Source of the DNA: Actinomycetota bacterium
GTDB taxonomy: Bacteria > Actinomycetota > Aquicultoria > UBA3085 > Oleimmundimicrobiaceae
Assembly: GCA_011046085.1 (NCBI GenBank)
Contig: DSBK01000103.1
Span: forward strand, 6,084 to 70,083
Length of the DNA: 64,000 bases
Direction of reading: 5' to 3'
Shown here: positions 18,559-42,420 of the stretch, piece after piece
How positions within the stretch are numbered: position 1 is the stretch's first letter
How the letters are laid out: each line of letters starts with the position of its first letter
The notes under the pieces: model-generated
What the model was told of the DNA's origin: nothing
Database searches by the model: none
What the model saw: the letters and a program-made list of their open reading frames with translations, nothing else
Made by a program: the position numbers and the translations under genes

Positions 18559-20376
18559 TTACTCGGCAACGTATATGGCATCAAACGGGCAGTGTTGCAT
18601 GCAGATACCACATTTTACACACTTTGCCACGTCTATTTCGTGTGGCTGTTTCTTTTCTCCACTTATTGCCCCAACCGGACAGTGTTTTTTGCAAACCCCG
18701 CATCCCTTGCAAATATTCTCTTTGATAATATAGGCAATGAGCTCCGAGCATACTCCCGCTCGACATCTTCCTTCTTTAACATGTTCTTCAAATTCCTTAC
18801 GGAAATATTTAAACATCGTGAGAACCGGATTCGGAGCTGTTTGTCCCAAACCACAGAGCGACGAAACCTTAATGTCCTGCGCCAAGTTTTCCAGGAGAAC
18901 CAGCTCTTCCTCATTGCTCTCTCCTTTTGTCATCCGTTGAAGCATCTCGAGCATCCGCTTGGTCCCGACCCGGCAGGGAACGCATTTTCCACACGACTCC
19001 TTCTGGGTAAAGGCCAAGAAATATCTTGCCAAATCGACCATACATGAGCTTTCATCCATAACAACCATCCCACCGGAGCCTACAATGGCGCCCGTTTGGG
19101 TTAGAGATTCGTAATCTATCGGCGTATCAAGAAACTCAGCTGGAAGGCATCCGCCGGATGGACCTCCAATTTGAACGGCTTTAAACTCCTCATCATCTTT
19201 TACCCCACCACATATATCGAATATTACTTCTCTCAGCGAGGTTCCCATGGGAACCTCGACCAATCCGCCGTTCTTAACCTTTCCCGTAACCGCAAAAATC
19301 TTGGTGCCTTTGCTTTTCTCCGTTCCTATGGCAGCAAACTTGTTGGCGCCGTTAATTATTATCCAGGCGATATTCGCAAGCGTCTCAACGTTGTTAATAT
19401 TGGTAGGTTTACCCCAAAGCCCGGATTGTGCCGGAAAAGGTGGACGAACCCTAGGCGTTCCCCTTCTGCCCTCAATCGACGCCATAAGCGCCGTTTCTTC
19501 CCCGCAAACGAAAGCGCCGGCGCCCTCTTTTATCTTAATCTCAAAATTAAAAGAGCTGCCAAGAATATTTTTACCCAAAAAACCTTTCTTCTTGACATGC
19601 TCAACCGCAATTTTTAATCGCTTAACGGCCAAGGGATATTCAGCTCTAACATATATATACCCCACAGACGCGCCAATGGCATAAGCGGCTATCATCATTC
19701 CTTCAAGAACGCTATGAGGATCACCTTCTAAAACACTCCTGTCCATAAACGCTCCAGGATCTCCCTCGTCCGCATTACAAATGAGATACTTTACATCACC
19801 GGAGGCCTTCCGAGCAAAATCCCACTTAATACCCGTGGGAAAACCAGCGCCACCGCGGCCCCTCAAACAGGAGGCCTTAACCTCCTCGACAACCTCTTCC
19901 GGAGTCATCTCGCTTAAAACTTTTTTAAGCGCCTCGTAACCGCCATGCTCTATATAATTGTCAATCTCTTCTGGGTCAATTTGCCCACAGTTTCTAAGAA
20001 CTATCCTCGTTTGTTTCTTATAAAAATTTATGTCCTTATAGAAAGGAACTTTCTCGCCCGTTGATGGGTCTTTGTAAAGTAAATCATCAATAATCTTGCC
20101 ACCCAACAGATGTTCTTCAACGATACGAGCTACATTCTCCGCTGAAACCATTGGATAAAAAATACCTTCAGGTTGAATGACAATAATTGGACCTTGCTGA
20201 CAAAAACCATGGCAACCAGTCTGAACAATATCTATTTCAGAAATCTTCCGCTTTTTAAACTCTTCTTTGAAAGCAGCATTTACTCTGTCTGCGCCGCTCA
20301 AAATACAGCCAGTTCCTGTACAGATAAAGACCCTATTTTGTTCTTCTTTGACATCTATTTTGCCCATAAATTTCAC
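18559..20376 (-). CDS. NuoF-like NAD(P)H-binding flavoprotein subunit (HydB/FdhB type; N-terminal thioredoxin-like 2Fe-2S, FMN/NADH site, C-terminal 2x[4Fe-4S])
   Basis: RGRGGAGFPTGIKW, GEETALM and ESCGKCVPCRVG (N3 cluster) motifs plus C-terminal CxxCxxCxxxCP x2. Confidence 0.85.
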   Translation of the reverse strand: MKFMGKIDVKEEQNRVFICTGTGCILSGADRVNAAFKEEFKKRKISEIDIVQTGCHGFCQQGPIIVIQPEGIFYPMVSAENVARIVEEHLLGGKIIDDLLYKDPSTGEKVPFYKDINFYKKQTRIVLRNCGQIDPEEIDNYIEHGGYEALKKVLSEMTPEEVVEEVKASCLRGRGGAGFPTGIKWDFARKASGDVKYLICNADEGDPGAFMDRSVLEGDPHSVLEGMMIAAYAIGASVGYIYVRAEYPLAVKRLKIAVEHVKKKGFLGKNILGSSFNFEIKIKEGAGAFVCGEETALMASIEGRRGTPRVRPPFPAQSGLWGKPTNINNVETLANIAWIIINGANKFAAIGTEKSKGTKIFAVTGKVKNGGLVEVPMGTSLREVIFDICGGVKDDEEFKAVQIGGPSGGCLPAEFLDTPIDYESLTQTGAIVGSGGMVVMDESSCMVDLARYFLAFTQKESCGKCVPCRVGTKRMLEMLQRMTKGESNEEELVLLENLAQDIKVSSLCGLGQTAPNPVLTMFKYFRKEFEEHVKEGRCRAGVCSELIAYIIKENICKGCGVCKKHCPVGAISGEKKQPHEIDVAKCVKCGICMQHCPFDAIYVAE

Positions 20377-21171: not shown

Positions 21172-21687
21172 TTAATTAATCGTTTTTTCTCTAGCCCTTA
21201 TGCTACGTATAATTTCTCTAGCTTCGTTGGGCGTCAGCCGCCCATAAGTTTCATTATTTATCCTCATAACCGGAGCAAGACTGCAAGCTCCTAAACACGC
21301 AACCGATCTCAAAGTGAACTGACGATCGTGGGTTGTGCCATTCTCTTCAATTCCAAGTTCGTTTGCCAACGCTTCCGTTACTTTCTTTGCGCCACTTACA
21401 TGACAAGCCGTTCCATGACATACAGATATCACGTTTTTACCGACCGGAATGAGCGAAAACTGCGAATAAAAGGTGGCGACGCCGTAAAGCTGACTCAACG
21501 GAATTCCCGTCGCCTCGGAGACATAATCCAAAACTTCCTCAGAGAGATAACCGAATCTCTCCTGTATCTCCTGGAGCAGAGGAATGGTCGCACCGTTATA
21601 ACTCTTGAATTTCTCAATGATGTCAGAAATTTCAGAGATACCAAATTTTTTATCTTTTCGCCCATCACACTTACATTGACACGCCAT
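21172..21687 (-). CDS. NuoE-like thioredoxin-fold [2Fe-2S] subunit
   Basis: CHGTACHVSG...CLGACSLAPVMRIN four-Cys pattern of NuoE/HydC. Confidence 0.85.
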   Translation of the reverse strand: MACQCKCDGRKDKKFGISEISDIIEKFKSYNGATIPLLQEIQERFGYLSEEVLDYVSEATGIPLSQLYGVATFYSQFSLIPVGKNVISVCHGTACHVSGAKKVTEALANELGIEENGTTHDRQFTLRSVACLGACSLAPVMRINNETYGRLTPNEAREIIRSIRAREKTIN

Positions 21688-27064: not shown

Positions 27065-27480
27065 CCGACTTTCCTCCCCACATTGGGTCCTAACTTTTTT
27101 AAGTTTTCATAAAAAACGCGGAGCAACTGTGCAAATTTAATCCCGTTGGAGGGAGCCAAATAATACATCTGCACCCTCTCCTCTTCGACACCAATCTCCT
27201 TTAAAATTTCCTTAATGCTAGACACCCTCGCCTCAGCCCTTAAGTTCCCTCTCAAAAACTGGCAAGCTTCCTTATGGCAAGCAAAAACAGCAACACCATC
27301 ACCTTCTTCTAGCGCCTTCATGATGTGAATGGCCTCGATCTTTCCTGAACACGGCACCCTTATCATTTGTACGTCGTTCGAGAAAACAAACCGGGACTCG
27401 ACCGCCATGTTGGCAGAGAGTAAACCGGAGTGCTCACAACAGAAAGCGGTTATTTTTGGCTCAAAATCTCCCTTCATCAA
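27061..27480 (-). CDS. mvhD: MvhD/FlpD-like [2Fe-2S] protein
   Basis: FCCEHSG...RVPCSGKI...VFACHKEAC. Confidence 0.8.
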   Translation of the reverse strand: MMKGDFEPKITAFCCEHSGLLSANMAVESRFVFSNDVQMIRVPCSGKIEAIHIMKALEEGDGVAVFACHKEACQFLRGNLRAEARVSSIKEILKEIGVEEERVQMYYLAPSNGIKFAQLLRVFYENLKKLGPNVGRKVG

Positions 27481-31534: not shown

Positions 31535-31554
31535 ATATAAATCTCCTTTCAGTC

Positions 31555-31790
31555 GATTTTAGCTATCAGCCATTTGCTACCTGCTATCTACCATCAGCCA
31601 TTTAGTCGGTAGTCTCTTAGTCGGGAGTCGGGAGTTAACAATTATTAGTTTCTTAATTCTTTAATTCCTGTTACCCGTTCCCTATTACCCTTTGCTATTG
31701 TTGTTTTGCAGCCTACGGACTCTCTACCCTTTCCCCTTATTTTGCTATCAGCTATCTGCCATCTGCTATTTGCTATTTGCCAATTAGAAC
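31555..31790. repeat. Intergenic repeat element, copy 4 (full length)
   Basis: agctatcagccatttgctacctgctatctaccatcagccatttagtcggtagtctcttagtcgggagtcgggagttaac...ccctttccccttattttgctatcagctatctgccatctgctatttgctatttgccaattag. Confidence 0.7.
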
Positions 31791-33985
31791 ATCGGTGGCA
31801 TCTCTAAAGCAGGATGACCCACCTTCTGCATATGAGTCATAACCTCTTCTTCGGTGGTTGCCACCGTTTCATCGGCTATTTTATCAACAAAATCGGCGAT
31901 TCCTTCCTCTTCTCCACGCTTTTGTAGTTCCGTTCTAAGAGCATCCTTTAACTCCTTTGGCATCCAAACAAGTCTCTTTAAGCCACCATCAGCAGATATA
32001 AACTTTTTGCTGGTTATGTATTGGCGGCCAATCCCGATAAATCCTGGGAGCTGGACACCTCCTCCGACCGTGCCAGCCAGAGTAGAAAACTTCATTCCAC
32101 AGGGAGTCATACCGGGAAATTCTCTGTTAACTATCATTACACCATTTGCCATCGGAAGAACCGCGACCACACACTCAAAACAACCACATGAAGTCATCGG
32201 ATCTTCCATCATAGAATAGGCGTTAAACCGCTCGAGAGATTGATTTGATTTTACAAAAACAAACTCGTTGACGTTTTTCCACTGACCTTTAATCGCATTT
32301 ATCGTATCGCCCTTCTTAACGGGTTGGTTGGGACCAGTTGGATTAATTTCATAAGCCGCTTTGCCATCAAGCCAATTATAAGCGCCGCAAAGCCCCAACC
32401 TTTCAGGTGTAATCATACAGACATGGTTCGGAGCAAAGCTCTGGCACAAGGTGCAGGAGTAGAAGGTGTCCACATTCTCGTCGGTCATACCGCGAACCCT
32501 TTCATCCCTGTGATGATATGCCCTCCTGGCTTCCTCCAACATCTGGTCAACCTTTTCAAGATCGGTATAGACAGTAACCTGAACTTTATCTACTATCGCC
32601 GGATAATCCGCAGCAAGTTTCGCAATGAGTATCTTTCCAAAATGATGGAAATTGAAACCTGCGTTCTTTGCCTTCTTGCTAACTCTTACCCATATGATGT
32701 CGCGCTGGCCCATATGAAAAATGCCTTCGGCGCCGTTTATCATGTGGTGGACCTGTCTTTCCAAAACCGATTCGAAATCATCCTGCATCTTTCTGCCTGC
32801 AACATCTATAACCATAGCGAGAGGAAGTCGTTCGCCCTCTTTGATCTCACCTATATCTTTTCCAATGACTTCAACCTTACCGTTTTCTACCTCTTCCATT
32901 TCTTTCGTTCTTAAAAATTCAAAAGCGTGTGTCTTTTGCCCGCCAAATTCAACGTACGTATCTTCCCCTCTAATCCTTTCTCCTTCAAAGGCGGGGCCAA
33001 AAGCAACGGGGATATCAATCTTGGTAACCTGAATTTTAAGTCCTCTTACCTCAATCGCCTTTTCCACCATTGCGTCCGGGGAAATATTTGAAACCACGTG
33101 CTCATACGTACAAACTCCGGTTGGAAGAATTTGGGGTATATCTGTATCGGCAATGGTCGGAAAACCAAAATTTATGGCGCCTGCCGCCTGAGCGTATTTC
33201 TCATCATCGACCTCGCCCAGAGCCAAAACAAACGCAAAGATTCTGTTTTTGTTATAAAGCAGTATTCTTCTAAAATCGCCGGGCTTAACCCCGCCGAAGG
33301 AAAGCGCCGCACGGGTCGCAAAACCCAGAGGGAAAACCGTAGCTGTTATATCTTTTCCAAAAGGAACGAGTCTCGTCTCCCAACCCATCTGGACACCTTC
33401 CTCTTCAAGTTGCTCGGTCATACTCTTCCCATCGGTTGAAGCCGACATGAAGACGTAGATATTTTTTTCCTGAAGTTCCCGAGCTATCTTTACCGCCATT
33501 TCATTGGTGGGAGCCGCTCCCACGCATGCGGCAAATCCCGGAGCCGAGCCATCGACAAATTCGACGCCTCTTTCCCTCATTATGACGTCATCGGCTGCAC
33601 CCAACCAAAGGTTGTTATCCGCCGGCTCCAACGACATTGTGTAAGGAGGAGATCCCACATATTTAATTGCCTCAATGATTTCATCTGCAAAAAGCGTTGC
33701 CATTCCGGCATCCAAGGCGGGGCCCAGATACGGCAACCAAACCTTCTCCGATGGCACAGGAGGGAGTATGCTTTTGGTGTATGCCAGAACTTTCTCCATA
33801 TCCCCAAGCGTGGAAACAGCCATCCCCGTAATTCCGTAAATTACGGGCAGATAATAACCTGTGTTTGGAAATTCCACCTTTTTGTCTGGCCCATATTTTC
33901 CCAAGGCTTCTTTGAGATCTTCTTCCGCTCTCTTAGTTATCTTATGGGCGCCCCTTATGGCAGCCGAAGCGATGATCTTAGACAA
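31784..33985 (-). CDS. acsB: Acetyl-CoA synthase (CODH/ACS beta subunit, A-cluster)
   Basis: Long collinear identity blocks with Moorella AcsB, for example TDE.VDTFYSC.LCQSFAPNHVC..TPER.GLCGA, PMTSCGCFE and FSTLAG..GGG.Q.PGF.GIGR.YI.SKKFI.ADGG; 733 aa. Confidence 0.95.
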   Translation of the reverse strand: MSKIIASAAIRGAHKITKRAEEDLKEALGKYGPDKKVEFPNTGYYLPVIYGITGMAVSTLGDMEKVLAYTKSILPPVPSEKVWLPYLGPALDAGMATLFADEIIEAIKYVGSPPYTMSLEPADNNLWLGAADDVIMRERGVEFVDGSAPGFAACVGAAPTNEMAVKIARELQEKNIYVFMSASTDGKSMTEQLEEEGVQMGWETRLVPFGKDITATVFPLGFATRAALSFGGVKPGDFRRILLYNKNRIFAFVLALGEVDDEKYAQAAGAINFGFPTIADTDIPQILPTGVCTYEHVVSNISPDAMVEKAIEVRGLKIQVTKIDIPVAFGPAFEGERIRGEDTYVEFGGQKTHAFEFLRTKEMEEVENGKVEVIGKDIGEIKEGERLPLAMVIDVAGRKMQDDFESVLERQVHHMINGAEGIFHMGQRDIIWVRVSKKAKNAGFNFHHFGKILIAKLAADYPAIVDKVQVTVYTDLEKVDQMLEEARRAYHHRDERVRGMTDENVDTFYSCTLCQSFAPNHVCMITPERLGLCGAYNWLDGKAAYEINPTGPNQPVKKGDTINAIKGQWKNVNEFVFVKSNQSLERFNAYSMMEDPMTSCGCFECVVAVLPMANGVMIVNREFPGMTPCGMKFSTLAGTVGGGVQLPGFIGIGRQYITSKKFISADGGLKRLVWMPKELKDALRTELQKRGEEEGIADFVDKIADETVATTEEEVMTHMQKVGHPALEMPPMF

Positions 33986-35939
33986 TTTCCAGCTCCCTCC
34001 TCATTTCCATATCGTAAAGCACTCTCTCTTTTTCGCGGTCTATTCCCAGGGCCTTTCTTCTCTTATCTATATTCTCAATCAGAATCTTAGCCATCTTAAC
34101 AGGATCGGGCTCGTAAAACCACTTTCCGCCCGTCGTCTCCTCAATTTCTTTAAAGAGATAATCGGATATTATCTCGCTGTTAGCTGTCGGGAAGGAGACA
34201 CCGAAACCAACCACGGCTCCGCTTGAGACAAAGTACTGACCTATGGCTACAGCTTTTTCGCTCATCCATTCCGGAGCGCAGCCAGCAGCCGGTATCTCGC
34301 TTATATCTTCACCGAGACCGCCTTCTTTAACTATCTCCGAGACAGCGACGAGAATTCGGCTGTTATCAACACACGAGCCGCAATGAAGCACGGGGGGGAT
34401 ACCCACCGCCTCGCAAACCTCGCGCAAACCAGCGCCCGCCAACTCGGCGGCTTCGGGGATAAGCAACCCTTCCTTTGCGCAACTTATCGCTGCGCAACCC
34501 GTAACCAAAACAAGTATGTTGTTTGCGATAAGCTCCTTAACCAATGTGGTGTGGACATAATCGTGTTTTACGCGCGGGTTGTTGCACCCCACAACGCCCA
34601 CAACGCCCTTTATCCTGCCATTGATTATGTTGTCGTTTAATGGTCTGTAAGAAGCGCGGAACCTTCCGCCTAGCATGTAGTTTATGGTTTCGTGAGAAAA
34701 GCCCGCCACAAGTTCAATTTCTTCTTTGGGAATATCGACCTTTCTCCTTTTGGGATAATTTTTAATGGCCCTTTTGACGATATTTTTTGCCGTTTCAATG
34801 GCATTATGATGATCGAATTCCATATGCGTGGCGCCCAAAATTTTACCCTTAGAAGAGGTAGTGATTATCTCTGTATGATAGCATTGAGCTACCGTCGGCA
34901 AAGACTGCATGATACATTGCACATCCACCACCATTGCATCGACAGCGCCCGTACAGATGGCCAACTCCTGCTGTAAGAAGTTGCCAGCCACGGGAATACC
35001 TTTGCGCATCAAAATTTCATTTGCCGTGCAACATATGCCAGCGAGGTTTATGCCTTTAGCGCCCGCCTCCTTGGCCTGTTCAACTAACTCAGGATCCCTT
35101 GTCGCGGCAACTATCATCTCGGAAAGCAAGGGCTCGTGACCGTGAACGATTATGTTAACTTCATCTTCTTTAAGGACACCTAAATTCACCTTTGCCCTGA
35201 TTGGAATGGGGGTCCCAAACATTATGTCTTGAAGCTCAGTGGCAAGCATCGAACCACCCCAGCCATCAGCTAAAGATGCCCTGCAACCATGAAGCAGGAT
35301 ATTTTTATAATCCTGATCGACGCCCATGTGGGTCCTGTGCATGGTTTCAACTATCTCGCGGTCAACCCCGCGAGGCGATATTCCTTCTTCTCTCCAGCGT
35401 TCTTGTCTCTTTTTCGGAGCTTGTTTTACAAGAGTTATTTCACCTTGCTGTTTGCTCATCTCAGCGAGAGCTCTCTCGCCCAACTCCAAAGCTATCTGGT
35501 TTTTGTCTTTGCCTTCTACATTGATATCAAAAGTTTTGGCCAAGGCATGCAATTTCGTGTCATCTTTTATCTCATAGCCGGGCACTTCGCCTTTTGCTGC
35601 AGCAATAAAGGTAAATATAACTTCCCTTGCGTGATCCGAGTGCGCGGCCGCCCCAGCAGCAATCATTCGAACAAAGTTTCTAGCCGCAACCGTGGAAGTG
35701 GTAGCGCCACAAACCCCGGTTCTTGTCTCGGTTACCCTGCAAGGACCCATTGAACATATTCTGCAACACGTTCCGCCCGAACCAAACGAACATGACTTAA
35801 GGGAAGCGACCCTATCAAAAGCGGTCTCTGCCCCGTCTTTTTTAGCCTTATTTATCATTTTTGCGCTTGCGGTGCAGCTGGTCTGCTCGCTAGCAGCAGG
35901 GTAAAATTTGTTTTCTCCGTTTTCGTTTTGTTTTTTCAT
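33978..35939 (-). CDS. acsA: Anaerobic Ni-Fe-S carbon monoxide dehydrogenase catalytic subunit (CooS/AcsA)
   Basis: N-terminal CCRICSMGPCR and downstream Cys/His C-cluster motifs; about 650 aa; immediately upstream of acsB with 8 nt overlap. Confidence 0.9.
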   Translation of the reverse strand: MKKQNENGENKFYPAASEQTSCTASAKMINKAKKDGAETAFDRVASLKSCSFGSGGTCCRICSMGPCRVTETRTGVCGATTSTVAARNFVRMIAAGAAAHSDHAREVIFTFIAAAKGEVPGYEIKDDTKLHALAKTFDINVEGKDKNQIALELGERALAEMSKQQGEITLVKQAPKKRQERWREEGISPRGVDREIVETMHRTHMGVDQDYKNILLHGCRASLADGWGGSMLATELQDIMFGTPIPIRAKVNLGVLKEDEVNIIVHGHEPLLSEMIVAATRDPELVEQAKEAGAKGINLAGICCTANEILMRKGIPVAGNFLQQELAICTGAVDAMVVDVQCIMQSLPTVAQCYHTEIITTSSKGKILGATHMEFDHHNAIETAKNIVKRAIKNYPKRRKVDIPKEEIELVAGFSHETINYMLGGRFRASYRPLNDNIINGRIKGVVGVVGCNNPRVKHDYVHTTLVKELIANNILVLVTGCAAISCAKEGLLIPEAAELAGAGLREVCEAVGIPPVLHCGSCVDNSRILVAVSEIVKEGGLGEDISEIPAAGCAPEWMSEKAVAIGQYFVSSGAVVGFGVSFPTANSEIISDYLFKEIEETTGGKWFYEPDPVKMAKILIENIDKRRKALGIDREKERVLYDMEMRRELEIV

Positions 35940-38485
35940 TTACTGGCTCCTCCTTTTGAAACACTTACAGCAATGAGCCGATGCTGTGGACTCTTTAACT
36001 TTGAATCCACGTTATCGCTTGCCAAAACGCCTCTTTCTTCATGACAACTTGGCATAAACAGCAACCCTTTGGGCAAAGAGCCGAGCATCTTCACCGATGT
36101 TGTTATCTTGCCTCGCCTAGAGGAAATTAAAACCGCGTCTCCTTCTTTTAAACTCAAAGACTCAGCATCCTCGGGGTTAAAGCCAGCGTAATTTCCCTTG
36201 TTTAATTCAAGAATAGACAGTTTCGAATTTCTTGTTCTTTGCCCATCGTAAAATCCAAATGATGTCTCGCCAACAATAAGCGCGTAAGGATACTTGCCAT
36301 CGGGTTCTTCACCAGACTTTTTTGGTTTTACAACGATAAAATCGTATGTATTCTTTTCGATCTTCTTGGGAATGGGAACCAGGGACTTTATCTCCTTGGC
36401 AATCTCTTTCTCAGAAGAGTATTCCATAGTATAGTCCATTCTTTCAGACAAATCAGCTATTGTCTCCCAGTCGGGTTTAGCCAAGGGTTCGAGAGCCGCC
36501 TTCACCTCTTTTGTCTGATACTCCAAGTTAACAACGGTGCCATTACTCTCGGCTAAAGTCGCGCCGGGCAACACAACATCTGCCATTTTCGCGGTTTCCG
36601 TCAAAAACACATCTTGAACCACCAAAAAATCTAAAGATGAAAACGCCTTCGCCACCTTTGATGAATTAGGAAACTGCGCAACCGGGTCCGCGCCGACAAT
36701 ATACATTCCTAAAACGGACGAGCCCATGTTTTCAACCATTTCCATGGCCGACAATCCCATTTCGTCGGGAAGATCGCGTTCCCATATTTTCTTGAAATCG
36801 TTCCCGATTTCATTCGCTCTCCTTGCGCCCGGATAAAACCCAGCCAAAGCCCCCATGTAGATCGTACCTCGCAAGTTGGAAGACAAAAGACATGGTAGCA
36901 CGCTTGCTTTGGTTCTTCCGGTTAGAAGCGCGATATCGGCAATTAATCCCATGCTTTGAGAGCTCACGGTTTCCGCTCCAAAGAGAATGATTGTCTTTTT
37001 GCCTTCTCCGTAAAGCTTTGCGGCTTCCTTTAAAAAGTCCTTGGATGTTTTTGTTTCCTTTTCTATGGTTTCTACTTTTAATCCGTCGAGAGACTTCTTA
37101 AATTCATCAAAATTCTTACACTTTTTAGTAAATTTTTCGTCATGCAGGTTTTCTTCCAGCAATTCCTTTAAAATCCCGCTTAAGACAAACTCTTCGGAGT
37201 CAACCTGTGGTTCTATATGAAGATCAGCAAGTTCAGAAATCTCCGTCTTTTTAGAATCAATGACAACGACTTTTGCTCCATTTAAAATTGCTTTTTTGAC
37301 ACTGGCGCCAACGCGAGGGTAAGACGCCGTAAGATCCGCGTTCACGAGCAAGAGAACGTCTGCCTCCTCAACATCCTTCATTGAAACAACAGCCCCATCC
37401 CTAAGCGCTTCATACAAATCAATTAAAGCGGGGAAACCTAAGAACCTGGCGGAACTATCGATATTGTTCGTCCCAATGCCAGCCCGCAAAAACTTCTGGA
37501 ATAAGTAAGCAACCTCATTTGTGTTTCCCGCTCCCATGAAACCACCGATGCTGTTTGCTCCATGTTTTTTCTTTATATCAATAAGACGCTCCGCCACAAC
37601 CTTAATAGCCTCTTCATAAGTACTCTCGGTTAAAACTCCATCCTTTTTAATTAAGGGCTTCGTAATTCGCTCAGAGCTTTCCACAAAATCCCATCCAAAC
37701 CTACCCTTTGAGCAAATATAATCACACGAGACCTCCCCGGTTGCCCTCATAATCTGTCCGTCCACGGTGCTAAACACAAGCTCACAACCGCAGCCACAGT
37801 AAGAACAGACCGTTTTTGTTTCTTTCATCTCCCATTCTCGACCACAAAAACGTCTATCAACCTCAACCAAAGCGCCAACGGGACAAACCGCGAGACAACT
37901 TCCGCAGAAATCACAACCCGACTCCTGTAATGGCCTATCCATTGGCGTAGCCACCTTGGTAACCATGCCCCTTTTGACAAAGTCAATAATATCCGCCCCC
38001 TGTTGTTTGCAGATTCTCACACACCTTCCGCAAAGAATACAGAGATTGTAATTTCTCTCTATGAAGGGATTGCTTCTGTCAACATCGTAACCTGGATCTT
38101 TCATTGAGAAACTGGTTTTCTCGATGCCAAGCTCGTAAGCATACTTTTGGAGATCGCAAGCGCCATTTTTATCGCAACTCATACAATCTCCGGGATGATT
38201 TGAAAGTATCAACTCCAGAACAAAACGCCTGGCCTCTCGAACTTTCTCCGTGTCGGTATCAACTACCATCCCATTCTTAACTTTTTGGGCACACGAAGCC
38301 ACAAGCCCTTTGCCTCCCTCAACTTCAACCAAACAAACCCTACACGAACCCGTGCTGGGAAGACATTCGCAGTAACAAAGATGAGGGATATCAATCCCCG
38401 CCATCTTGGCCGCCTGAATGATGAGAGTCCCTTCGGGAACTTTTATTTCTTTTCCGTTTATCGTTACGGTGACTTGATCACTCAA
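35936..38485 (-). CDS. FdhA/NuoG-like large Fe-S subunit lacking the Sec/Cys Mo ligand (non-catalytic electron-transfer paralog)
   Basis: Same N-terminal 2Fe-2S plus 4Fe-4S architecture and NNID motif as fdhA, but ...NNIDSSARFLGFP... replaces ...NNIDHCARLUHAP...; the C-terminal molybdopterin-binding-like domain is retained. Confidence 0.75.
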   Translation of the reverse strand: MSDQVTVTINGKEIKVPEGTLIIQAAKMAGIDIPHLCYCECLPSTGSCRVCLVEVEGGKGLVASCAQKVKNGMVVDTDTEKVREARRFVLELILSNHPGDCMSCDKNGACDLQKYAYELGIEKTSFSMKDPGYDVDRSNPFIERNYNLCILCGRCVRICKQQGADIIDFVKRGMVTKVATPMDRPLQESGCDFCGSCLAVCPVGALVEVDRRFCGREWEMKETKTVCSYCGCGCELVFSTVDGQIMRATGEVSCDYICSKGRFGWDFVESSERITKPLIKKDGVLTESTYEEAIKVVAERLIDIKKKHGANSIGGFMGAGNTNEVAYLFQKFLRAGIGTNNIDSSARFLGFPALIDLYEALRDGAVVSMKDVEEADVLLLVNADLTASYPRVGASVKKAILNGAKVVVIDSKKTEISELADLHIEPQVDSEEFVLSGILKELLEENLHDEKFTKKCKNFDEFKKSLDGLKVETIEKETKTSKDFLKEAAKLYGEGKKTIILFGAETVSSQSMGLIADIALLTGRTKASVLPCLLSSNLRGTIYMGALAGFYPGARRANEIGNDFKKIWERDLPDEMGLSAMEMVENMGSSVLGMYIVGADPVAQFPNSSKVAKAFSSLDFLVVQDVFLTETAKMADVVLPGATLAESNGTVVNLEYQTKEVKAALEPLAKPDWETIADLSERMDYTMEYSSEKEIAKEIKSLVPIPKKIEKNTYDFIVVKPKKSGEEPDGKYPYALIVGETSFGFYDGQRTRNSKLSILELNKGNYAGFNPEDAESLSLKEGDAVLISSRRGKITTSVKMLGSLPKGLLFMPSCHEERGVLASDNVDSKLKSPQHRLIAVSVSKGGASK

Positions 38486-38502
38486 TTTCTTTCCTCCTTT
38501 AA

Positions 38503-39024
38503 TTAAACAATTTCTATGGCATCAACTTCACATACGGCCAGACATTTGCCGCAGTTAGTGCATTTTTTACTCTTAATATAATAGGGCTTATTATCCGAAA
38601 GATATGGAATCATTTTGTCTCCAACAATTGCATCCTCGGAACAAACCACTTTACAAGCTCCGCAAGACGTACATTTTTCTGGATTTATCCAATAATTTAA
38701 TATATCTTCACAGGACTTTTGGGCACAATGTTTCTCTTTTATATGTTCCTCATACTCGCCCTTATATGAGGACAAGGAGTCCTTTATAAAAACAGCGGCA
38801 TCTTTGCCCAACTTGCATCGGGCGGTGTCAATAATATGAGAAGATATCTCCTCGAGCAAAACCACGTCTTCCTCTTCTCCCTCTCCTTTTGTAATTCTTT
38901 CAAGAACATCGACCATTCGTTCCGTTCCAAGCATGCAGGGCAGACACTTACCGCACATCTTATCTTTAGTAAACCCCTTTAAGAATTCTAGCGTTATCAT
39001 AACGGAACAACCGTTGGCGCTCAC
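38503..39024 (-). CDS. Stand-alone NuoF C-terminal module homologue (N3-type cluster plus 2x[4Fe-4S])
   Basis: MCGKCLPCMLGTER... parallels ESCGKCPPCRIGTYE of the adjacent NuoF-like gene, followed by CTSCGACKVVC and CTNCGKCLAVC ferredoxin motifs. Confidence 0.6.
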   Translation of the reverse strand: MSANGCSVMITLEFLKGFTKDKMCGKCLPCMLGTERMVDVLERITKGEGEEEDVVLLEEISSHIIDTARCKLGKDAAVFIKDSLSSYKGEYEEHIKEKHCAQKSCEDILNYWINPEKCTSCGACKVVCSEDAIVGDKMIPYLSDNKPYYIKSKKCTNCGKCLAVCEVDAIEIV

Positions 39025-40958
39025 TTGACCACCTCCTGCCTGCCTGTCTGTCGGCAGACACGGCCGGCAGGCACAGCCTGCTTACCAGAAGATACAGTCT
39101 TTTCCTCAAACTCCCTCACAACACAACCTGTCGGGCAAACTCCTATACAAGCTCCGCACTTTTCACAATATGACTGGTCGATGTAGAACCTGTCCCGCTC
39201 TTCCACGATCGCGTCATAAACACATACTTCCTTACAAAGACCGCAAAGAAGACATTCCTCCTCATGTATTCTGTATCTACCAAGCGCCGTGCATGCGCCG
39301 GCTGGACAATATCTATTTCTTATATGAGCTTCATACTCATCCCTGAAATATTTGATGGTTGAAAGCACGGGATTGGGCGCGCTTTTCCCCAATCCGCAAA
39401 GAGCTGTCTCTTGAATATGCTTACCTATAATTTCAAGGCGCTCAATATCTCCCTCTTCACCTTTACCTTCAACAATTCTAGTCAAAATATTAAACATCTC
39501 ATACGTTCCAATCCTGCAAGGAGGACATTTCCCACAGGATTCCACCTGAGTAAAAGAGAGGAAGTATCTGGCAATTTCCACCATGCAATTGGACTCATCC
39601 ATAACAACAAGCCCGCCGGAGCCCATCATTGCCCCAACCTCATCCAATGAATCGAAGTCTACCGGCAAATCGAGATATTCTTTGGGGATACATCCGCCGC
39701 TGGGTCCACCCGTCTGAACGGCTTTAAACTCTTTGTCACCCAAAATGCCGCCACCTATATCGTAAACAATCTCTCGAATGGTGACCCCCATTGGAACCTC
39801 GATTAGGCCCGTGTTTTTAACTTTTCCAGTTAACGCAAATATTTTTGTTCCCGGTGAACCCTTTGTCCCAATGGAAGTGTACCAATCCGCTCCCTTGATT
39901 ATTATCGGAGCAATATTAGCCAAGGTCTCAACGTTATTCAATACGGTGGGTTTGCCCCACAAACCCTTCTCTACAGAACGAGGAGGCGTTGTTCGAGGCA
40001 TTCCTCTTTTGCCCTCAATGGAGAACATAAGCGCTGTCGACTCTCCACATATGAAGGCCCCCGCTCCCCGTTTTATTTCCAAATCGAAGTTAAAACAGCT
40101 CCCAAGTATATTATTACCCAACAAACCAAGCTCCCTCGCCTGATTAATGGCTATAGTTAAATTCTCAACAGCAAGAGGATACTCTTGTCTCACATATATG
40201 AACCCCTTTTCGCAGTTACCCAGAGCATAAGCGCCAATTGCCATGCCCTCGATGACTGAATGGGGATCTCCCTCAAGAACGCTTCTGTCCATAAAAGCAC
40301 CCGGGTCCCCTTCGTCGCCGTTACAAACAATGTACTTTATATTTCCCTTTGTTCTTCGGCCTCCTTCCCACTTTCTCCCCACAGGGAAGCCAGCGCCACC
40401 CCGACCTCTCAGGTTGGACTTTTTAACCTCGTCGATAACTTCTTCCGGGGTCATATCGCTCAAAACTTTTGCCAGAGCCTCATAACCACCAACCGCTATG
40501 TAATCCTCTATGTTGGTCGGGTCAATTTGACCACAATTTCTTAAAACTATTCTATGTTGCTTGCCGTAGAAGGAAATCTCTTCCTCTTTGACAGCAAGAT
40601 CACCCGTAATCGGGTCAACCACTTGCAGACGGTCAATGACCTTGCCACGGTTTATTGTAAGATCAATTATCTTAGCCGCATCAAAAGGATCAACTTTTTG
40701 ATAAAAGACATCAAGGGGCTCTACAATTACAATGGGGCCCTTTTCACATAATCCCTGGCAACCGGTGGGCCTTATTTCAAAATCGACACCTTGTTTGGCC
40801 GCTTCTTTTTTGAAGGCCTCCACCACCTTTTGGGAGCCCGAAGCGCGACATCCCGTTCCACTGCAGACCCGAACTATCGTCTTTTTCTGCCTTGCTCTTT
40901 TGTTACAAATTTTTTCTCTTAAAGCACTTAATTCTTTAAAATTTTTGAGTTTACTCAT
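39021..40958 (-). CDS. NuoF-like NAD(P)H-binding flavoprotein subunit (second copy)
   Basis: RGRGGAGFPVGRKW, ESCGKCPPCRIG and C-terminal 2x[4Fe-4S]; paralogous to 18559-20376. Confidence 0.85.
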   Translation of the reverse strand: MSKLKNFKELSALREKICNKRARQKKTIVRVCSGTGCRASGSQKVVEAFKKEAAKQGVDFEIRPTGCQGLCEKGPIVIVEPLDVFYQKVDPFDAAKIIDLTINRGKVIDRLQVVDPITGDLAVKEEEISFYGKQHRIVLRNCGQIDPTNIEDYIAVGGYEALAKVLSDMTPEEVIDEVKKSNLRGRGGAGFPVGRKWEGGRRTKGNIKYIVCNGDEGDPGAFMDRSVLEGDPHSVIEGMAIGAYALGNCEKGFIYVRQEYPLAVENLTIAINQARELGLLGNNILGSCFNFDLEIKRGAGAFICGESTALMFSIEGKRGMPRTTPPRSVEKGLWGKPTVLNNVETLANIAPIIIKGADWYTSIGTKGSPGTKIFALTGKVKNTGLIEVPMGVTIREIVYDIGGGILGDKEFKAVQTGGPSGGCIPKEYLDLPVDFDSLDEVGAMMGSGGLVVMDESNCMVEIARYFLSFTQVESCGKCPPCRIGTYEMFNILTRIVEGKGEEGDIERLEIIGKHIQETALCGLGKSAPNPVLSTIKYFRDEYEAHIRNRYCPAGACTALGRYRIHEEECLLCGLCKEVCVYDAIVEERDRFYIDQSYCEKCGACIGVCPTGCVVREFEEKTVSSGKQAVPAGRVCRQTGRQEVVK

Positions 40959-41466
40959 CGTTCTCTTCCCCTTTATTTTTAAGGGCCGAGATTATCTTCT
41001 TTGGATTTCTCTCTTTAGAGACATTCTCGTTAACCACAACGACCGGGGCAAGCGCACAACATCCGACGCAACTCACCGTTTCCAGGGTAAATTCGAGGTC
41101 GTCTGTAGTTTCACCGGCTTTTATTCCGAGCTCTTCTTCCAACCCTTCGAGAATTAATTTCGAACCGCGAACATAACAAGCTGTGCCTGTGCAAACTTTA
41201 ATTATATTTTTTCCTCGAGGGGTAAAGTAAAAATGCGCATAAAACGAGGCAACCCCATACACGTGAGCCAGAGATAAATCAAATTCATCGGCGATAACTT
41301 CGAGTGATTCTTCAGGCAAAAAACCAAATTCTTCTTGAACATCCTGCAGAGCATGTACAAGTACTCCCGTCTTGCCTTCATACTTCTTTAGTAATTTATG
41401 GACATCATCTACATCTATCTGAATTTTTTTCTCTTCTTTTTTGGTACCACAAACGCAATTGGACAT
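40951..41466 (-). CDS. NuoE-like [2Fe-2S] subunit (second copy)
   Basis: CTGTACYVRG...CVGCCALAPVVVVN. Confidence 0.85.
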   Translation of the reverse strand: MSNCVCGTKKEEKKIQIDVDDVHKLLKKYEGKTGVLVHALQDVQEEFGFLPEESLEVIADEFDLSLAHVYGVASFYAHFYFTPRGKNIIKVCTGTACYVRGSKLILEGLEEELGIKAGETTDDLEFTLETVSCVGCCALAPVVVVNENVSKERNPKKIISALKNKGEENDE

Positions 41467-41481
41467 TACGCTTCCTCCGAA

Positions 41482-42420
41482 CTAACTCATCAGTTCTTCT
41501 ATGAATTTTTTTGTTAACTTAACCGCTTCGGGATGCCTCATAACCAAGACATCGCCACCGGCGATTAACATGCTAGCAGCCGTCATAAATTCCCAGAGAA
41601 TCCCCCTCTTTTCAGGATCACCCCAGCTCGGCTCGTCTTCCGTCTTTGCTTCTTTGGCTTTCCAGACCTCTCTTCCAAAGTCACACAATATCGGCATCTG
41701 AGTCATTTCATCATTTTGCTGGAGAGCCGCAAGTCGTAACCTCTCCATAATCGAATACACATACTCTAAACCATATCCTAAAGCTGCCCCGCTTGGGTCC
41801 ATCACCAGTCTATCGGCCTCCAAACCCAATTGGGTCATCAATATATTTAGTTGTTTAGCCATGTTCACATCTATTGGAGAGAGCCCCGAAACATTGTGCT
41901 TATAGCCAATCGCCGCAGCCGTTATGGGTTTATAGTTATCTTCTTGAGAGGGACCCAATATAACTCTTTGCCCCTCGGTAACTTCGGCAACCTTTTTTAA
42001 AACCTCCCCATCTTTTTCGATATTGCCGCTTCCATAAACGCATAAAGGCACGGAGATTGCCTCTAGAACGGCTTTAACGGTCTCAGCTGCTTCAGCAGGA
42101 TCGCGATTCTCGCCGTTTGGATCGGTACTCACAAGCCGTAAACAAATCATGTCCGCTCCGAACTCATCCTGGCACTTCTTTGCCCATACAACCGGATCAC
42201 TCAGAACATCTCTAAACGGCTTTGCTACAGCGCTGGACCAATTATCCGGAGCTACATCATAAACCTCCATAGCTATAACCGGTTTTCTGGACATCTCACC
42301 TTCAAAGAAGTGAAACGGCATCGCAATTTCCCCGCCGACCGTAATTTGATTGCTCTCACCACCCATAATAACCTCGCGGATTTTCCCTTGATATGTATCT
42401 ATCGGTGCTTGAAATGCCAT
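41482..42420 (-). CDS. acsD: Corrinoid iron-sulfur protein small subunit (AcsD/CdhD)
   Basis: 312 aa TIM-barrel-like protein adjacent to acs genes with the expected size. Confidence 0.7.
   Translation of the reverse strand: MAFQAPIDTYQGKIREVIMGGESNQITVGGEIAMPFHFFEGEMSRKPVIAMEVYDVAPDNWSSAVAKPFRDVLSDPVVWAKKCQDEFGADMICLRLVSTDPNGENRDPAEAAETVKAVLEAISVPLCVYGSGNIEKDGEVLKKVAEVTEGQRVILGPSQEDNYKPITAAAIGYKHNVSGLSPIDVNMAKQLNILMTQLGLEADRLVMDPSGAALGYGLEYVYSIMERLRLAALQQNDEMTQMPILCDFGREVWKAKEAKTEDEPSWGDPEKRGILWEFMTAASMLIAGGDVLVMRHPEAVKLTKKFIEELMS

What the first reader, a model, noticed from the sequence alone, without database searches (positions are those of the whole stretch)
35936..41466. NuoEFG-like module with a catalytically dead FdhA paralog and an extra NuoF-C module immediately upstream of CODH/ACS
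Four co-directional genes encode NuoE-like and NuoF-like subunits, a stand-alone duplicate of the NuoF C-terminal N3 + 2x[4Fe-4S] module, and an 849 aa FdhA/NuoG-like protein. This large protein keeps all N-terminal Fe-S motifs and NNID, but the CARLU active site is replaced by SSARFL, so it has no Mo ligand. It abuts cooS/acsA with a 4 nt overlap. This looks like a dedicated NAD(P)H-linked (possibly flavin-based bifurcating) electron module wired to CODH rather than a formate dehydrogenase. A second true NuoEF-FdhA(Sec) set sits 15 kb downstream, pointing to duplication and neofunctionalisation.
Basis: partly seen in the sequence, partly recalled or inferred. Interest (0 to 1): 0.6.

Follow-up and report, generated by a model that had tools for sequence, protein, structure and literature searches.

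The report
NADH-flavoprotein module fused into CODH/ACS operon
Four genes sitting directly in front of the CO dehydrogenase/acetyl-CoA synthase genes encode an NADH-binding iron-sulfur module built around a formate dehydrogenase relative that has lost its catalytic site. The same arrangement recurs in four bacterial phyla, so in these organisms the key carbon-fixing enzyme may draw on NADH as well as ferredoxin.

Summary
On the minus strand, 40951-35936 encodes NuoE-like (171 aa), NuoF/HydB-like (645 aa), a 173 aa copy of the HydB C-terminus ("X") and an 849 aa FdhA-type protein. The last gene overlaps acsA by ATGA.

The 849 aa protein keeps His97 and all 19 Fe-S cysteines. It has Leu/Gly/Leu where true FdhA has Sec(Cys)/His/Arg, and it has lost most pterin-binding motifs.

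It is not a local accident. About 58 protein clusters form one clade (Actinomycetota, Chloroflexota, Bacillota, Bipolaricaulota-like) with the same losses. All 11 other loci I opened show the same gene order ending in acsA (then acsB wherever the contig continues). dN/dS is 0.05-0.14.

NuoF1 carries every cluster site that marks bifurcating HydABC/Bfu enzymes, and its best solved relatives are bifurcating B subunits.

Most likely this is a Bfu-type NAD(H)/ferredoxin module docked on CODH/ACS, with the dead FdhA acting as wire and scaffold. That coupling is inferred from synteny, not shown.

The paralogy with the downstream NuoE/NuoF/FdhA(Sec) genes is ancient (37-57% identity), not a recent duplication.

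I found only COG-level or figure-legend mentions in the literature. I rate it a new variant of a known kind.

The parts
40951..41466 (-). NuoE/HydC/BfuC-like [2Fe-2S] subunit (171 aa)
   Evidence: Pfam 2Fe-2S_thioredx 3.7e-48; NCBIfam NuoE 147.5 bits against a cutoff of 141. Its 3' end overlaps the next gene by 8 nt.
39021..40958 (-). NuoF/HydB/BfuB-like NAD(H)/FMN subunit (645 aa). It has an N-terminal thioredoxin-like [2Fe-2S] domain, the N3-type [4Fe-4S], the His/Cys 'B2' site (EAHIRNRYCPAGAC) and a C-terminal 2x[4Fe-4S] domain.
   Evidence: Pfam. Best solved relatives are bifurcating B subunits: 7t2r_B 795 bits, 8a6t_B 788 bits, 7q4v_B 766 bits. The alignment shows the H-x5-C-x4-C site; that site is defined in PMC9304861.
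38503..39024 (-). 'X173': a stand-alone paralog of the HydB/BfuB C-terminus. It has B1-like [4Fe-4S] ligands (C24, C27, C30, C70), B2-like ligands (C6, T67, H94, C100, C105) and two CxxCxxCxxxC motifs, but no FMN domain. An 8-residue insert specific to this family lies between the two ferredoxin motifs.
   Evidence: Pfam NADH_4Fe-4S 3.1e-22. 40% identical to NuoF1 residues 453-608. Invariant ligands in 12 homologs. Alignment with X proteins from 9 other loci. An X-specific HMM beats a BfuB C-terminus HMM by at least 50 bits for 22 sequences, with a clean gap below them.
35936..38485 (-). 849 aa FdhA-derived, non-catalytic iron-sulfur subunit (BfuA/NuoG-like). It has a [2Fe-2S] site (C37, C48, C51, C65), a His-ligated [4Fe-4S] (H97, C101, C104, C110), two [4Fe-4S] sites (C149-159, C191-201) and the MopB [4Fe-4S] (C227, C230, C234, C258). 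Leu349, Gly350 and Leu533 stand where true FdhA has Sec/Cys, His and Arg.
   Evidence: AF2 model pLDDT 83.9; best fold matches are FdsA-type formate dehydrogenases (7vw6_A, TM 0.88). dN/dS 0.05-0.14 against the ortholog in L002.
33978..35939 (-). acsA, the Ni-CODH subunit of CODH/ACS (653 aa). Its start overlaps the stop of the 849 aa gene (ATGA).
   Evidence: Pfam Prismane 2.9e-178; NCBIfam CO_DH_cata 664 bits. Junction sequence.
31784..33985 (-). acsB, acetyl-CoA synthase subunit (733 aa). It overlaps acsA by 8 nt.
   Evidence: NCBIfam CODH_ACS_al_bet 1104 bits.
41482..42420 (-). acsD (small subunit of the corrinoid Fe-S protein), immediately upstream of the module. The module is therefore embedded inside the acs operon.
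   Evidence: Pfam CdhD; NCBIfam 431 bits.
15410..18097 (-). True FdhA with selenocysteine (TGA at 17039-17041); used here as the comparison paralog.
   Evidence: Translation reads NNIDHCARL*HAPT and continues in frame for 543 codons. Pfam hits on both halves. 38% identical to the 849 aa protein.
18559..20376 (-). NuoF2 (605 aa), the HydB-type partner of the true FdhA.
   Evidence: Pfam. 57% identical to NuoF1.
21172..21687 (-). NuoE2 (171 aa), separated from NuoF2 by acsE (20377-21156).
   Evidence: Pfam 2Fe-2S_thioredx 8.3e-52. 37% identical to NuoE1.

Best explanation
The four genes encode a HydABC/Bfu-type flavin iron-sulfur module that belongs to the CODH/ACS enzyme of this organism.

Shown by the data:
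- NuoE1 and NuoF1 form the NAD(H)/FMN core, with every cluster site that distinguishes bifurcating Bfu enzymes from plain NADH dehydrogenases.
- The 849 aa protein descends from FdhA. It keeps the five-cluster electron wire and the four-domain fold, but it has lost the Sec/Cys, His and Arg of the active site and most pterin-binding motifs. It cannot be a formate dehydrogenase, and it plays the BfuA/NuoG role of wire and scaffold.
- X173 adds three or four more clusters.
- The set is old, is under purifying selection, and always sits directly upstream of acsA.

Inferred:
- The module docks on the CODH subunit, so CO2/CO conversion at the C-cluster is connected to NAD(H) at the FMN and to ferredoxin at the C-terminal clusters of NuoF1.
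- In the reductive direction, NADH plus reduced ferredoxin together would reduce CO2 to the carbonyl group. This is confurcation, and it would be pulled by immediate CO consumption in ACS.
- In the oxidative direction, CO from acetyl-CoA cleavage would reduce both NAD+ and ferredoxin.
- X173 most likely bridges the last cluster of the 849 aa protein to the CODH surface clusters.
For: - Domain and ligand content.
- Loss of the catalytic triad, and of 71 of the 239 columns that are at least 95% conserved in 72 true FdhAs, while all 19 Fe-S Cys stay 96-100% conserved in 49 clade members.
- The dead set is one bipartition in an NJ tree, with branch length 0.35.
- Identical order NuoE-NuoF-X-deadFdhA-acsA in L002-L005 and L007-L013, followed by acsB wherever the contig continues. 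These include Chloroflexota, Bacillota (Ammonifex thiophilus, Desulfothermobacter acidiphilus) and a locus whose protein resembles a Bipolaricaulota sequence.
- ATGA overlap with acsA and no terminator at the junction.
- NuoF1's best solved relatives are all bifurcating B subunits.
- The B2-site His and Cys residues that PMC9304861 gives as the mark of bifurcating members are present.
- dN/dS 0.05-0.14.
- Precedents for catalytically inactive FdhF-like domains serving as wire or scaffold in Bfu-type enzymes: StnC (PMC10482914). By sequence match, the NiFe-HydA subunit 7t2r_A may be another.
- A CooS-linked 'Codh-Bfu' has already been predicted (PMC9304861).
Against: - There is no biochemical, structural or expression evidence. 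The attachment to CODH rests on gene order alone.
- CO2/CO (about -520 mV; textbook value, from my own knowledge) is as low as ferredoxin. CO would therefore be an unusual 'third substrate' for a Bfu enzyme, whose known third substrates lie near -400 mV. Reduction of CO2 with NADH plus Fd would need very low steady-state CO.
- X173 has no characterised counterpart, so its position in the chain is a guess.
- Absence of the pterin cofactor is inferred from sequence, not measured.
Confidence: 0.45

Rival explanations
1. The module is bifurcating, but CODH sits on the low-potential branch. X173 replaces free ferredoxin and carries the low-potential electrons from the NuoF1 C-terminal clusters straight into CODH. 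The mid-potential donor (formate through the true FdhA, or H2 through a hydrogenase) enters through the 849 aa scaffold.
For: X173 is a copy of exactly the part of BfuB that leads to ferredoxin, with the B1-B4 ligand sets. A true FdhA with its own NuoE and NuoF lies in the same cluster. This topology avoids the thermodynamic problem of CO as a mid-potential substrate.
Against: No catalytic partner for the 849 aa protein is encoded next to it in any of the loci examined. The gene that always follows it is acsA. The true FdhA has its own complete NuoE/NuoF pair.
Confidence: 0.15
2. It is a non-bifurcating NAD(H):CODH oxidoreductase. Electrons pass linearly between the FMN and CODH, as in NAD+-dependent FdsABG formate dehydrogenase or the soluble Hox hydrogenase, giving NAD+-reducing CO oxidation.
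For: The fold and closest sequence relatives of the 849 aa protein are FdsA-type NAD-dependent formate dehydrogenases. CO oxidation with NAD+ is strongly exergonic and needs no coupling.
Against: According to PMC9304861, non-bifurcating relatives lack the B2-B5 sites. NuoF1 has all of them. Its best solved matches are bifurcating enzymes at 655-795 bits, while FdsB-type subunits score about 340-380 bits. A CODH that could only run oxidatively would be odd inside an acs operon used for CO2 fixation by autotrophs such as Ammonifex.
Confidence: 0.12
3. The module does not bind CODH at all. It is a separate NADH:ferredoxin-type redox enzyme, or a partner of the MetVF-Hdr methylene-THF reductase genes further down the cluster, and it is merely co-transcribed with the acs genes.
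For: The whole cluster is one long Wood-Ljungdahl operon, so adjacency is partly expected. An enzyme with only NAD(H) and ferredoxin sites could still supply reduced ferredoxin.
Against: The position immediately 5' of acsA is invariant, while the rest of the cluster is shuffled between phyla: acsD precedes the module in Actinomycetota and Chloroflexota, cooC precedes it in Bacillota, and the MetVF/Hdr genes are placed differently. A Bfu core with only two substrates has no thermodynamic logic.
Confidence: 0.15
4. The 849 aa protein still binds a Mo/W-bis-pterin cofactor without a protein ligand (as arsenite oxidase does; from my own knowledge) and catalyses an unknown reaction.
For: The four-domain MopB fold is predicted with high confidence. 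The MopB [4Fe-4S] and some residues near the pterin site (D343, E646, G649) remain invariant.
Against: 71 of the 239 near-invariant FdhA columns are lost. These include MGxTQH, AMTN, NTxENHP, GQNNVQG and the RLLYHYH stretch of domain IV, together with a deletion of about 40 residues. The Molydop_binding score falls to 39.6 bits. Domain IV is the least conserved part (0.34 identity) and is missing altogether in the roughly 750 aa versions.
Confidence: 0.05
5. It is a decaying pseudogene copy of fdhA.
For: Loss of all catalytic residues.
Against: The ORF is intact. dN/dS is 0.05-0.14. The Fe-S ligands are 96-100% conserved across four phyla, and synteny is conserved.
Confidence: 0.01

Closest known systems
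BfuABC / HydABC family of electron-bifurcating enzymes (Schut et al. 2022, PMC9304861), including the structurally solved NiFe-HydABCSL of Acetomicrobium mobile (7t2r) and FeFe-HydABC (8a6t, 7q4v)
   Same: NuoE1 corresponds to BfuC and NuoF1 to BfuB, with FMN, B1, the B2 His/Cys site, B3/B4 and B5. The 849 aa protein corresponds to a BfuA with five clusters. NuoF1 scores 766-795 bits against the B subunits of these enzymes. The catalytic unit would be a separate subunit feeding BfuA, as in Type 3 members.
   Different: The partner is the CODH of CODH/ACS, not a hydrogenase. BfuA is derived from a complete FdhA. There is an extra subunit (X173) that duplicates the C-terminus of BfuB. No activity has been measured.
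Predicted 'Codh-Bfu' (PMC9304861; Acetohalobium arabaticum, Clostridium cellulovorans; 4 sequences)
   Same: The idea that a Ni-CODH is the third-substrate module of a Bfu core.
   Different: In Codh-Bfu, a monofunctional CODH with extra Fe-S subunits lies between bfuB and bfuA, BfuA lacks clusters A3 and A5 (Type 2), and the system is reported only in Firmicutes. Here the order is C-B-X-A-acsA-acsB, BfuA keeps all five clusters plus a dead MopB domain, the CODH is the ACS-associated one, and four phyla carry it.
NAD+-dependent FdsABG-type formate dehydrogenases (Rhodobacter capsulatus 6tg9, Methylorubrum extorquens 7vw6) and Type 1 Fdh-Bfu
   Same: They share the same overall architecture of the large subunit. 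They are the closest sequence relatives (E about 1e-110) and the closest fold relatives (TM 0.87-0.88). They also have NuoE- and NuoF-like partners.
   Different: The Sec/Cys, His and Arg residues and the pterin motifs are absent. The protein scores below the NCBIfam cutoff for Fdh-alpha (452.8 against 666).
Catalytically inactive MopB or FdhF-like domains: NuoG/Nqo3 of complex I and StnC of the Sporomusa Stn transhydrogenase (8oh5; PMC10482914)
   Same: A formate-dehydrogenase-like domain retained without catalysis and used as an Fe-S wire or assembly scaffold next to a NuoEF-type flavoprotein (matches).
   Different: The protein scores below the NuoG equivalog cutoff (384 against 470). No membrane-arm nuo genes and no GltD domain are present. 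It forms its own clade next to FdhA, and it is tied to acsA.
CooS-CooF-FNOR clusters, i.e. CODH with an FAD/NAD(P) oxidoreductase (recalled from the literature on Clostridium and Geobacter; named as a context class in PMC6344411)
   Same: A Ni-CODH genetically linked to a pyridine-nucleotide-dependent flavoprotein.
   Different: The flavoprotein family is unrelated, the CODH is monofunctional, and there is no NuoEFG-type module.

Membership tests
Bfu (HydABC-type) bifurcating family | BfuB with an FMN/NAD(H) domain and the N3-type [4Fe-4S] cluster (B1) | tested here: met
   Complex1_51K 4.3e-44 and NADH_4Fe-4S 2.2e-32 in NuoF1.
Bfu (HydABC-type) bifurcating family | B2 site: a His and Cys residues flanking B1, absent from non-bifurcating homologs (PMC9304861) | tested here: met
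   NuoF1 has DESNC...TALC...EAH-x5-C-x4-C, aligned with other BfuB C-termini. Definition. This is a motif-level test only.
Bfu (HydABC-type) bifurcating family | B3/B4, the C-terminal 2x[4Fe-4S] domain, and B5, the N-terminal [2Fe-2S] domain | tested here: met
   Fer4 families at residues 563-613 and 2Fe-2S_thioredx at residues 22-99.
Bfu (HydABC-type) bifurcating family | BfuC, a NuoE-like [2Fe-2S] subunit encoded alongside | tested here: met
   NuoE1, 163.5 bits, overlapping the NuoF1 gene.
Bfu (HydABC-type) bifurcating family | BfuA, a NuoG-like multi-cluster subunit | tested here: met
   H97 and 19 Cys for five clusters, invariant in the clade.
Bfu (HydABC-type) bifurcating family | Tightly coupled reaction of NAD(H), ferredoxin and a third substrate | not testable with these tools
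   Needs enzyme assays.
Mo/W-bisPGD formate dehydrogenase (FdhA/FdsA) | Sec or Cys ligand to Mo/W, followed by the catalytic His | tested here: not met
   Leu349 and Gly350. 0 of 49 clade members have Cys-His at these columns, against 72 of 72 true FdhAs.
Mo/W-bisPGD formate dehydrogenase (FdhA/FdsA) | Catalytic Arg in the (P)xRGQNNVQG motif | tested here: not met
   Leu533. The Arg is retained in 0% of the clade.
Mo/W-bisPGD formate dehydrogenase (FdhA/FdsA) | Pterin (MGD) binding motifs and an intact domain IV | tested here: not met
   71 of 239 conserved columns are lost, and there is a deletion of about 40 aa. Molydop_binding scores 39.6 bits with partial coverage. Fdh-alpha scores 452.8 bits, below the cutoff of 666.
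Mo/W-bisPGD formate dehydrogenase (FdhA/FdsA) | Four-domain MopB fold with a proximal [4Fe-4S] cluster | tested here: met
   AF2 model matched to 7vw6_A (TM 0.88) and 6tg9_A (TM 0.87). C227, C230, C234 and C258 are invariant.
Complex I subunit NuoG | Equivalog-level sequence match, and nuoA-N membrane-arm genes in the same locus | tested here: not met
   NuoG TIGR01973 scores 384 bits, below the cutoff of 470. None of the ORFs scanned from 13650 to 54133, including both flanks of the module, gave a membrane-arm nuo domain; the ORFs outside that range were not scanned.
Codh-Bfu as predicted in PMC9304861 | CODH genes lying between bfuB and bfuA, and a BfuA without clusters A3 and A5 | tested here: not met
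   The order here is C-B-X-A-acsA, and BfuA has all five cluster sites.

The most novel reading that the evidence does not exclude
In these lineages CODH/ACS is itself a Bfu-type confurcating/bifurcating enzyme. The carbonyl branch of the Wood-Ljungdahl pathway would be driven by NADH plus reduced ferredoxin rather than by ferredoxin alone, or in reverse would yield NADH plus reduced ferredoxin from acetyl-CoA cleavage. This would work through a dedicated NuoE/NuoF/X/dead-FdhA arm bound to AcsA. It would change the ATP and ferredoxin bookkeeping of acetogenesis, autotrophy and syntrophic acetate oxidation in subsurface Actinomycetota, Chloroflexota, Bipolaricaulota and Ammonifex-type Bacillota.
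Probability: 0.3. Interest if true: 0.85.

Novelty: new variant of a known kind. Interest (0 to 1): 0.62.

Why it matters
Which electron carrier feeds CODH/ACS sets the energy budget of the Wood-Ljungdahl pathway, and that pathway operates at the thermodynamic limit of life. All characterised bacterial CODH/ACS enzymes are treated as ferredoxin-dependent. A hard-wired NAD(H) input would lower the demand for low-potential ferredoxin in autotrophs. In acetate oxidisers it would give an extra pull on acetyl-CoA cleavage.

It would also explain why genes annotated as 'NADH dehydrogenase' or 'formate dehydrogenase' keep turning up inside acs operons of subsurface MAGs. There they are currently counted as formate dehydrogenase or complex I parts, and metabolic reconstructions that count this protein as an FdhA are probably wrong.

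The hypothesis can be tested directly. Cultured thermophiles carry the same module: Ammonifex thiophilus and Desulfothermobacter acidiphilus, and a Thermodesulfitimonas sp. sequence also belongs to the clade.

Tried and rejected
- Shifted-alignment rescue of a Cys or Sec: rejected. Neither the Sec column nor the neighbouring conserved Cys column holds Cys in any of the 49 clade members.
- Terminator or operon break between the 849 aa gene and acsA: none found. The genes overlap as ATGA, and terminator-like hits are at chance level.
- Recent local duplication of the FdhA set: rejected, because identities are 37-57% and the clade spans several phyla.
- Literature searches (8 searches, about a dozen papers opened) for an explicit description of the module. 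I found only a COG-level mention that NuoE/F/G-like proteins occur in the WLP context of Ni-CODH (PMC6344411), 'nuo' in a figure legend of Actinobacteria WLP clusters (PMC7325909), nuoEF near CODH/ACS in NPL-UPA2 (PMC6305446), and the different CooS-type Codh-Bfu prediction. Thermacetogenium phaeum has no such genes in its acs cluster. The most relevant paper for this lineage (Jiao et al. 2021, ISME J, PMC8443620) is not held, so I could not check it.
- The profile search with the X173 family against 1.84 billion representatives did not separate X from ordinary BfuB C-termini or fragments by score. A two-HMM comparison did. Family size is therefore only a rough lower bound.
- P0139, the top hit of that search, turned out to be a BfuB with a duplicated B1 domain, not an X fusion.
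- A SECIS-like hairpin after the TGA of the true FdhA is no more stable than shuffled sequence (z -0.48). The Sec assignment rests on the alignment and the continuing reading frame.
- Rfam and tRNA scans of the window gave nothing.
- Only one genome-contig scan was available, and it returned just the two closest relatives. The wider distribution came from protein look-ups instead.


Full report
**What is in the window.** The region lies inside one long minus-strand Wood-Ljungdahl cluster. In the direction of transcription the genes are:
- fhs (46054-47748), acsV/RACo (44118-46037), cooC (43345-44103), folD (42467-43324), acsD (41482-42420)
- the four genes of the finding (41466-35936)
- acsA (33978-35939), acsB (31784-33985), acsC (30191-31534)
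- two HdrA-like ORFs, metV, metF, hdrC, hdrB, an unassigned 352 aa ORF and a second cooC
- NuoE2 (21172-21687), acsE (20377-21156), NuoF2 (18559-20376), and a selenocysteine FdhA (15410-18097)

The closest genomes are Candidatus Oleimmundimicrobium (Actinomycetota, class Ca. Aquicultoria), whose ortholog of the 849 aa protein is 77-78% identical; one of them, L002, has the same gene order.

**Check of the observation.**
- NuoE1 is a full-length thioredoxin-like [2Fe-2S] protein.
- NuoF1 has an N-terminal [2Fe-2S] domain, the FMN/NADH domain, an SLBB domain, the N3-type [4Fe-4S] domain and a C-terminal 2x[4Fe-4S] domain.
- The 173 aa protein consists of an N3-type domain plus a 2x[4Fe-4S] domain. 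It is 40% identical to NuoF1 residues 453-608.
- The 849 aa protein has the complete architecture of an FdsA/FdhA-type large subunit.
- The active-site comparison is exact: NNIDHCARL-U-HAPT in the true FdhA against NNIDSSARF-L-GFPAL.
- The genes are tightly packed, with 8 nt, 4 nt and 4 nt overlaps and one 17 nt spacer. Each has a GGAGG-type ribosome-binding site. The last gene overlaps acsA as ATGA. Terminator-like hairpins are at chance frequency, and none sits at the junction.

**The large protein is a conserved, non-catalytic descendant of FdhA.** I aligned the 120 best database relatives with the two window proteins. They split into 72 sequences with Cys/Sec-His at the active site and 49 without.
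- The 49 form a single bipartition on a long branch (0.35) in a neighbour-joining tree.
- All 19 cysteines of the five Fe-S sites are 96-100% conserved in the 49, and His97 of the His-ligated cluster is invariant in the 41-member alignment.
- Of the 239 columns that are at least 95% conserved in true FdhAs, 71 are lost in the 49. The losses include the Sec/Cys (Leu349 here), the catalytic His (Gly350), the catalytic Arg (Leu533), and the MGxTQH, AMTN, NTxENHP, GQNNVQG and RLLYHYH stretches. A segment of about 40 residues is deleted.
- Within the clade, the N-terminal Fe-S part is as conserved as in real FdhA (0.63 against 0.59 mean identity). The MopB part (0.45 against 0.65) and domain IV (0.34 against 0.59) are relaxed.
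- The gene is nevertheless under clear purifying selection along its whole length. dN/dS against the L002 ortholog is 0.05, 0.09 and 0.14 for the three parts; dS is near saturation, so these ratios are approximate.
- An AlphaFold2 model (pLDDT 83.9) keeps the four-domain fold. Its best structural matches are NAD-dependent formate dehydrogenases (7vw6_A TM 0.88, 6tg9_A TM 0.87), followed by FdhH and mycobacterial NuoG.
- The protein falls below the NCBIfam cutoffs for both Fdh-alpha and NuoG.

Lack of a protein ligand would not by itself exclude a pterin cofactor. The broad loss of binding motifs, and the complete absence of domain IV in the roughly 750 aa versions of the clade, make a cofactor unlikely.

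**The module is a unit tied to acsA.** I opened the genomic context of eleven further clade members, choosing divergent ones. All show NuoE, NuoF, an X protein of 170-197 aa, the dead FdhA and then acsA, followed by acsB wherever the contig continues.
- The sources are Ca. Oleimmundimicrobium (L002), a Chloroflexota MAG (L003), Bacillota MAGs (L004), Ammonifex thiophilus (L007), Desulfothermobacter acidiphilus with a complete genome (L013), a contig whose protein resembles a Bipolaricaulota sequence (L008) and several metagenome contigs.
- The surroundings differ between phyla. acsD precedes the module in Actinomycetota and Chloroflexota, and cooC precedes it in Bacillota. The fixed element is therefore the module plus acsA.
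- A profile search found about 58 clusters of this clade at 90% identity. A Thermodesulfitimonas sequence is among them.

**The flavoprotein is of the bifurcating type.** Schut et al. (PMC9304861) define the Bfu family by a BfuBC core in which BfuB carries clusters B1-B5. They state that non-bifurcating relatives (complex I, FdsB, Hox) lack B2-B5.
- NuoF1 has the N-terminal [2Fe-2S] domain (B5), B1, the C-terminal pair (B3 and B4) and the B2 ligand pattern, including His-x5-Cys-x4-Cys.
- Its best solved relatives are the B subunits of bifurcating NiFe-HydABCSL (795 bits), FeFe-HydABC (788 and 766 bits), Nfn-Bfu and Stn. FdsB-type subunits score about 340-380 bits.
- NuoF2, the partner of the true FdhA, has the same build. 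The window therefore holds one ordinary Fdh-Bfu-like set and one set whose large subunit is catalytically empty.

**The extra 173 aa subunit.** X173 and its orthologs in nine other loci align over their whole length with the C-terminus of BfuB.
- They keep the four B1-like Cys, the B2-like Cys/Thr/His/Cys/Cys set and both ferredoxin motifs.
- They differ from BfuB by an ARCK-type motif in place of LCGLG, and by an eight-residue insert (consensus G-E/D-x3-PY-x2-DN-x-PY) between the ferredoxin motifs.
- An HMM of the X group beats an HMM of BfuB C-termini by 50-150 bits for 22 sequences, and every other sequence scores about equal or higher with the BfuB model. About 14 of these 22 are representatives at 50% identity in a library of 1.84 billion proteins, so the family is small.
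- X has no FMN domain, so it can only be a three- or four-cluster wire.
- One database protein fuses an X-like module to a GltD-type NAD(P)H flavoprotein, which fits a wire role.

**How it most likely works.**

Shown: the cofactor-site inventory, the loss of catalysis in the large subunit, and the conservation and fixed position of the module.

Inferred: the module is a Type-3-like Bfu enzyme whose catalytic unit is the CODH of CODH/ACS. The dead FdhA would act as BfuA wire and docking scaffold, and X173 would extend the wire to the CODH surface clusters. Precedents exist for catalytically inactive FdhF-like domains as wire or scaffold. One is StnC of the Stn transhydrogenase (PMC10482914). 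NuoG of complex I is another, from established knowledge. The NiFe-HydA subunit, which matches residues 4-440 of the query, may be a third.

Thermodynamics: the potentials quoted in PMC9304861 are NADH about -280 mV, H2 -414 mV and Fd about -500 mV. From textbook values recalled by me, CO2/CO is about -520 mV, and the overall CO2 + methyl + CoA to acetyl-CoA step is far less negative. On these numbers, NADH plus reduced ferredoxin could drive CO2 reduction only if CO is kept very low by channelling into ACS. In the oxidative direction, reduction of both NAD+ and Fd by CO is downhill. This mismatch with the usual 'mid-potential third substrate' is the main weakness of the model. It motivates the rival in which X173 places CODH on the low-potential branch.

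**Comparison with what is known, and novelty.** The parts are known kinds: the Bfu core, and a degenerate MopB scaffold. The idea of a CODH-linked Bfu has been proposed, but for a different architecture: CooS between bfuB and bfuA, a BfuA without clusters A3 and A5, Firmicutes only, and four sequences.

For the ACS-linked module with an FdhA-derived BfuA and the X subunit, I found only incidental mentions. These are COG1034/1894/1905 in the WLP context of Ni-CODH (PMC6344411), 'nuo' in a figure legend (PMC7325909), and nuoEF near CODH/ACS (PMC6305446). Databases name the large protein 'formate dehydrogenase alpha subunit' or 'molybdopterin-dependent oxidoreductase'. I could not read Jiao et al. 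2021 on the actinobacterial WLP, so a prior description there cannot be excluded.

I classify the finding as a new variant of a known kind.

**Verdict.**
It is wrong in implying a recent in-genome duplication.
- The functional coupling to CODH is a well-motivated hypothesis, with about 0.45 confidence for the stated model. The rivals mostly differ in topology.
- Interest is moderate to high, because the hypothesis bears on the energetics of the Wood-Ljungdahl pathway and can be tested in cultured thermophiles.

Noticed in passing
window 31535-31783 (copies at 31558-31605 and 31740-31787): The 250 nt spacer between acsB and acsC is bounded by two copies of a 48 nt direct repeat (77% identical) rich in GCTATC/GCCATC-like units. 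There are further short repeats inside the spacer. No Rfam match and no inverted repeat.
   Followed up: partly
window 20377-21156: acsE (methyltransferase, Pterin_bind) is inserted between NuoE2 and NuoF2 of the true FdhA set, so that set is not contiguous.
   Followed up: no
window 27477-29105 and 29105-30163: The HdrA-like flavoprotein is split into two ORFs (352 and 542 aa) that overlap by 1 nt and lie in different frames. The Bacillota loci encode a single protein of about 1000 aa at the equivalent place. L002 also has two ORFs.
   Followed up: no
window 51791-53569: A 592 aa protein combines an [FeFe]-hydrogenase H-cluster domain (Fe_hyd_lg_C, 1.9e-42) and Fe-S motifs with a C-terminal GGDEF diguanylate cyclase domain (8.8e-46). 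It looks like a sensory hydrogenase wired to c-di-GMP signalling.
   Followed up: no
window 22885-23943: A 352 aa ORF between hdrB and the second cooC has no Pfam match at E <= 1e-5, although it sits inside the Wood-Ljungdahl cluster.
   Followed up: no
P0235 (database protein, 650 aa): A GltD-type NAD(P)H flavoprotein (Fer4_20 + Pyr_redox_2) is fused to an X173-like module. It scores 175 bits with the X HMM against 91 bits with the BfuB C-terminus HMM.
   Followed up: partly
L008 2924-5179, and the shorter clade members P0079, P0092, P0096 and P0293-P0295 (735-754 aa; Sec/Cys site checked only for the first three): Versions resembling a Bipolaricaulota sequence are about 100 residues shorter and lack the Molydop_binding domain IV altogether. 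L008 is still followed directly by a CODH gene.
   Followed up: partly
window 47898-50004: A LytTR response regulator and a GAF-containing histidine kinase lie immediately upstream of fhs, on the same strand as the Wood-Ljungdahl cluster. They are possible regulators of it.
   Followed up: no
window 16985-17044: The sequence after the in-frame TGA of the true FdhA can form a small hairpin, but it is no more stable than shuffled controls (z -0.48). No tRNA-Sec gene is in the window.
   Followed up: partly
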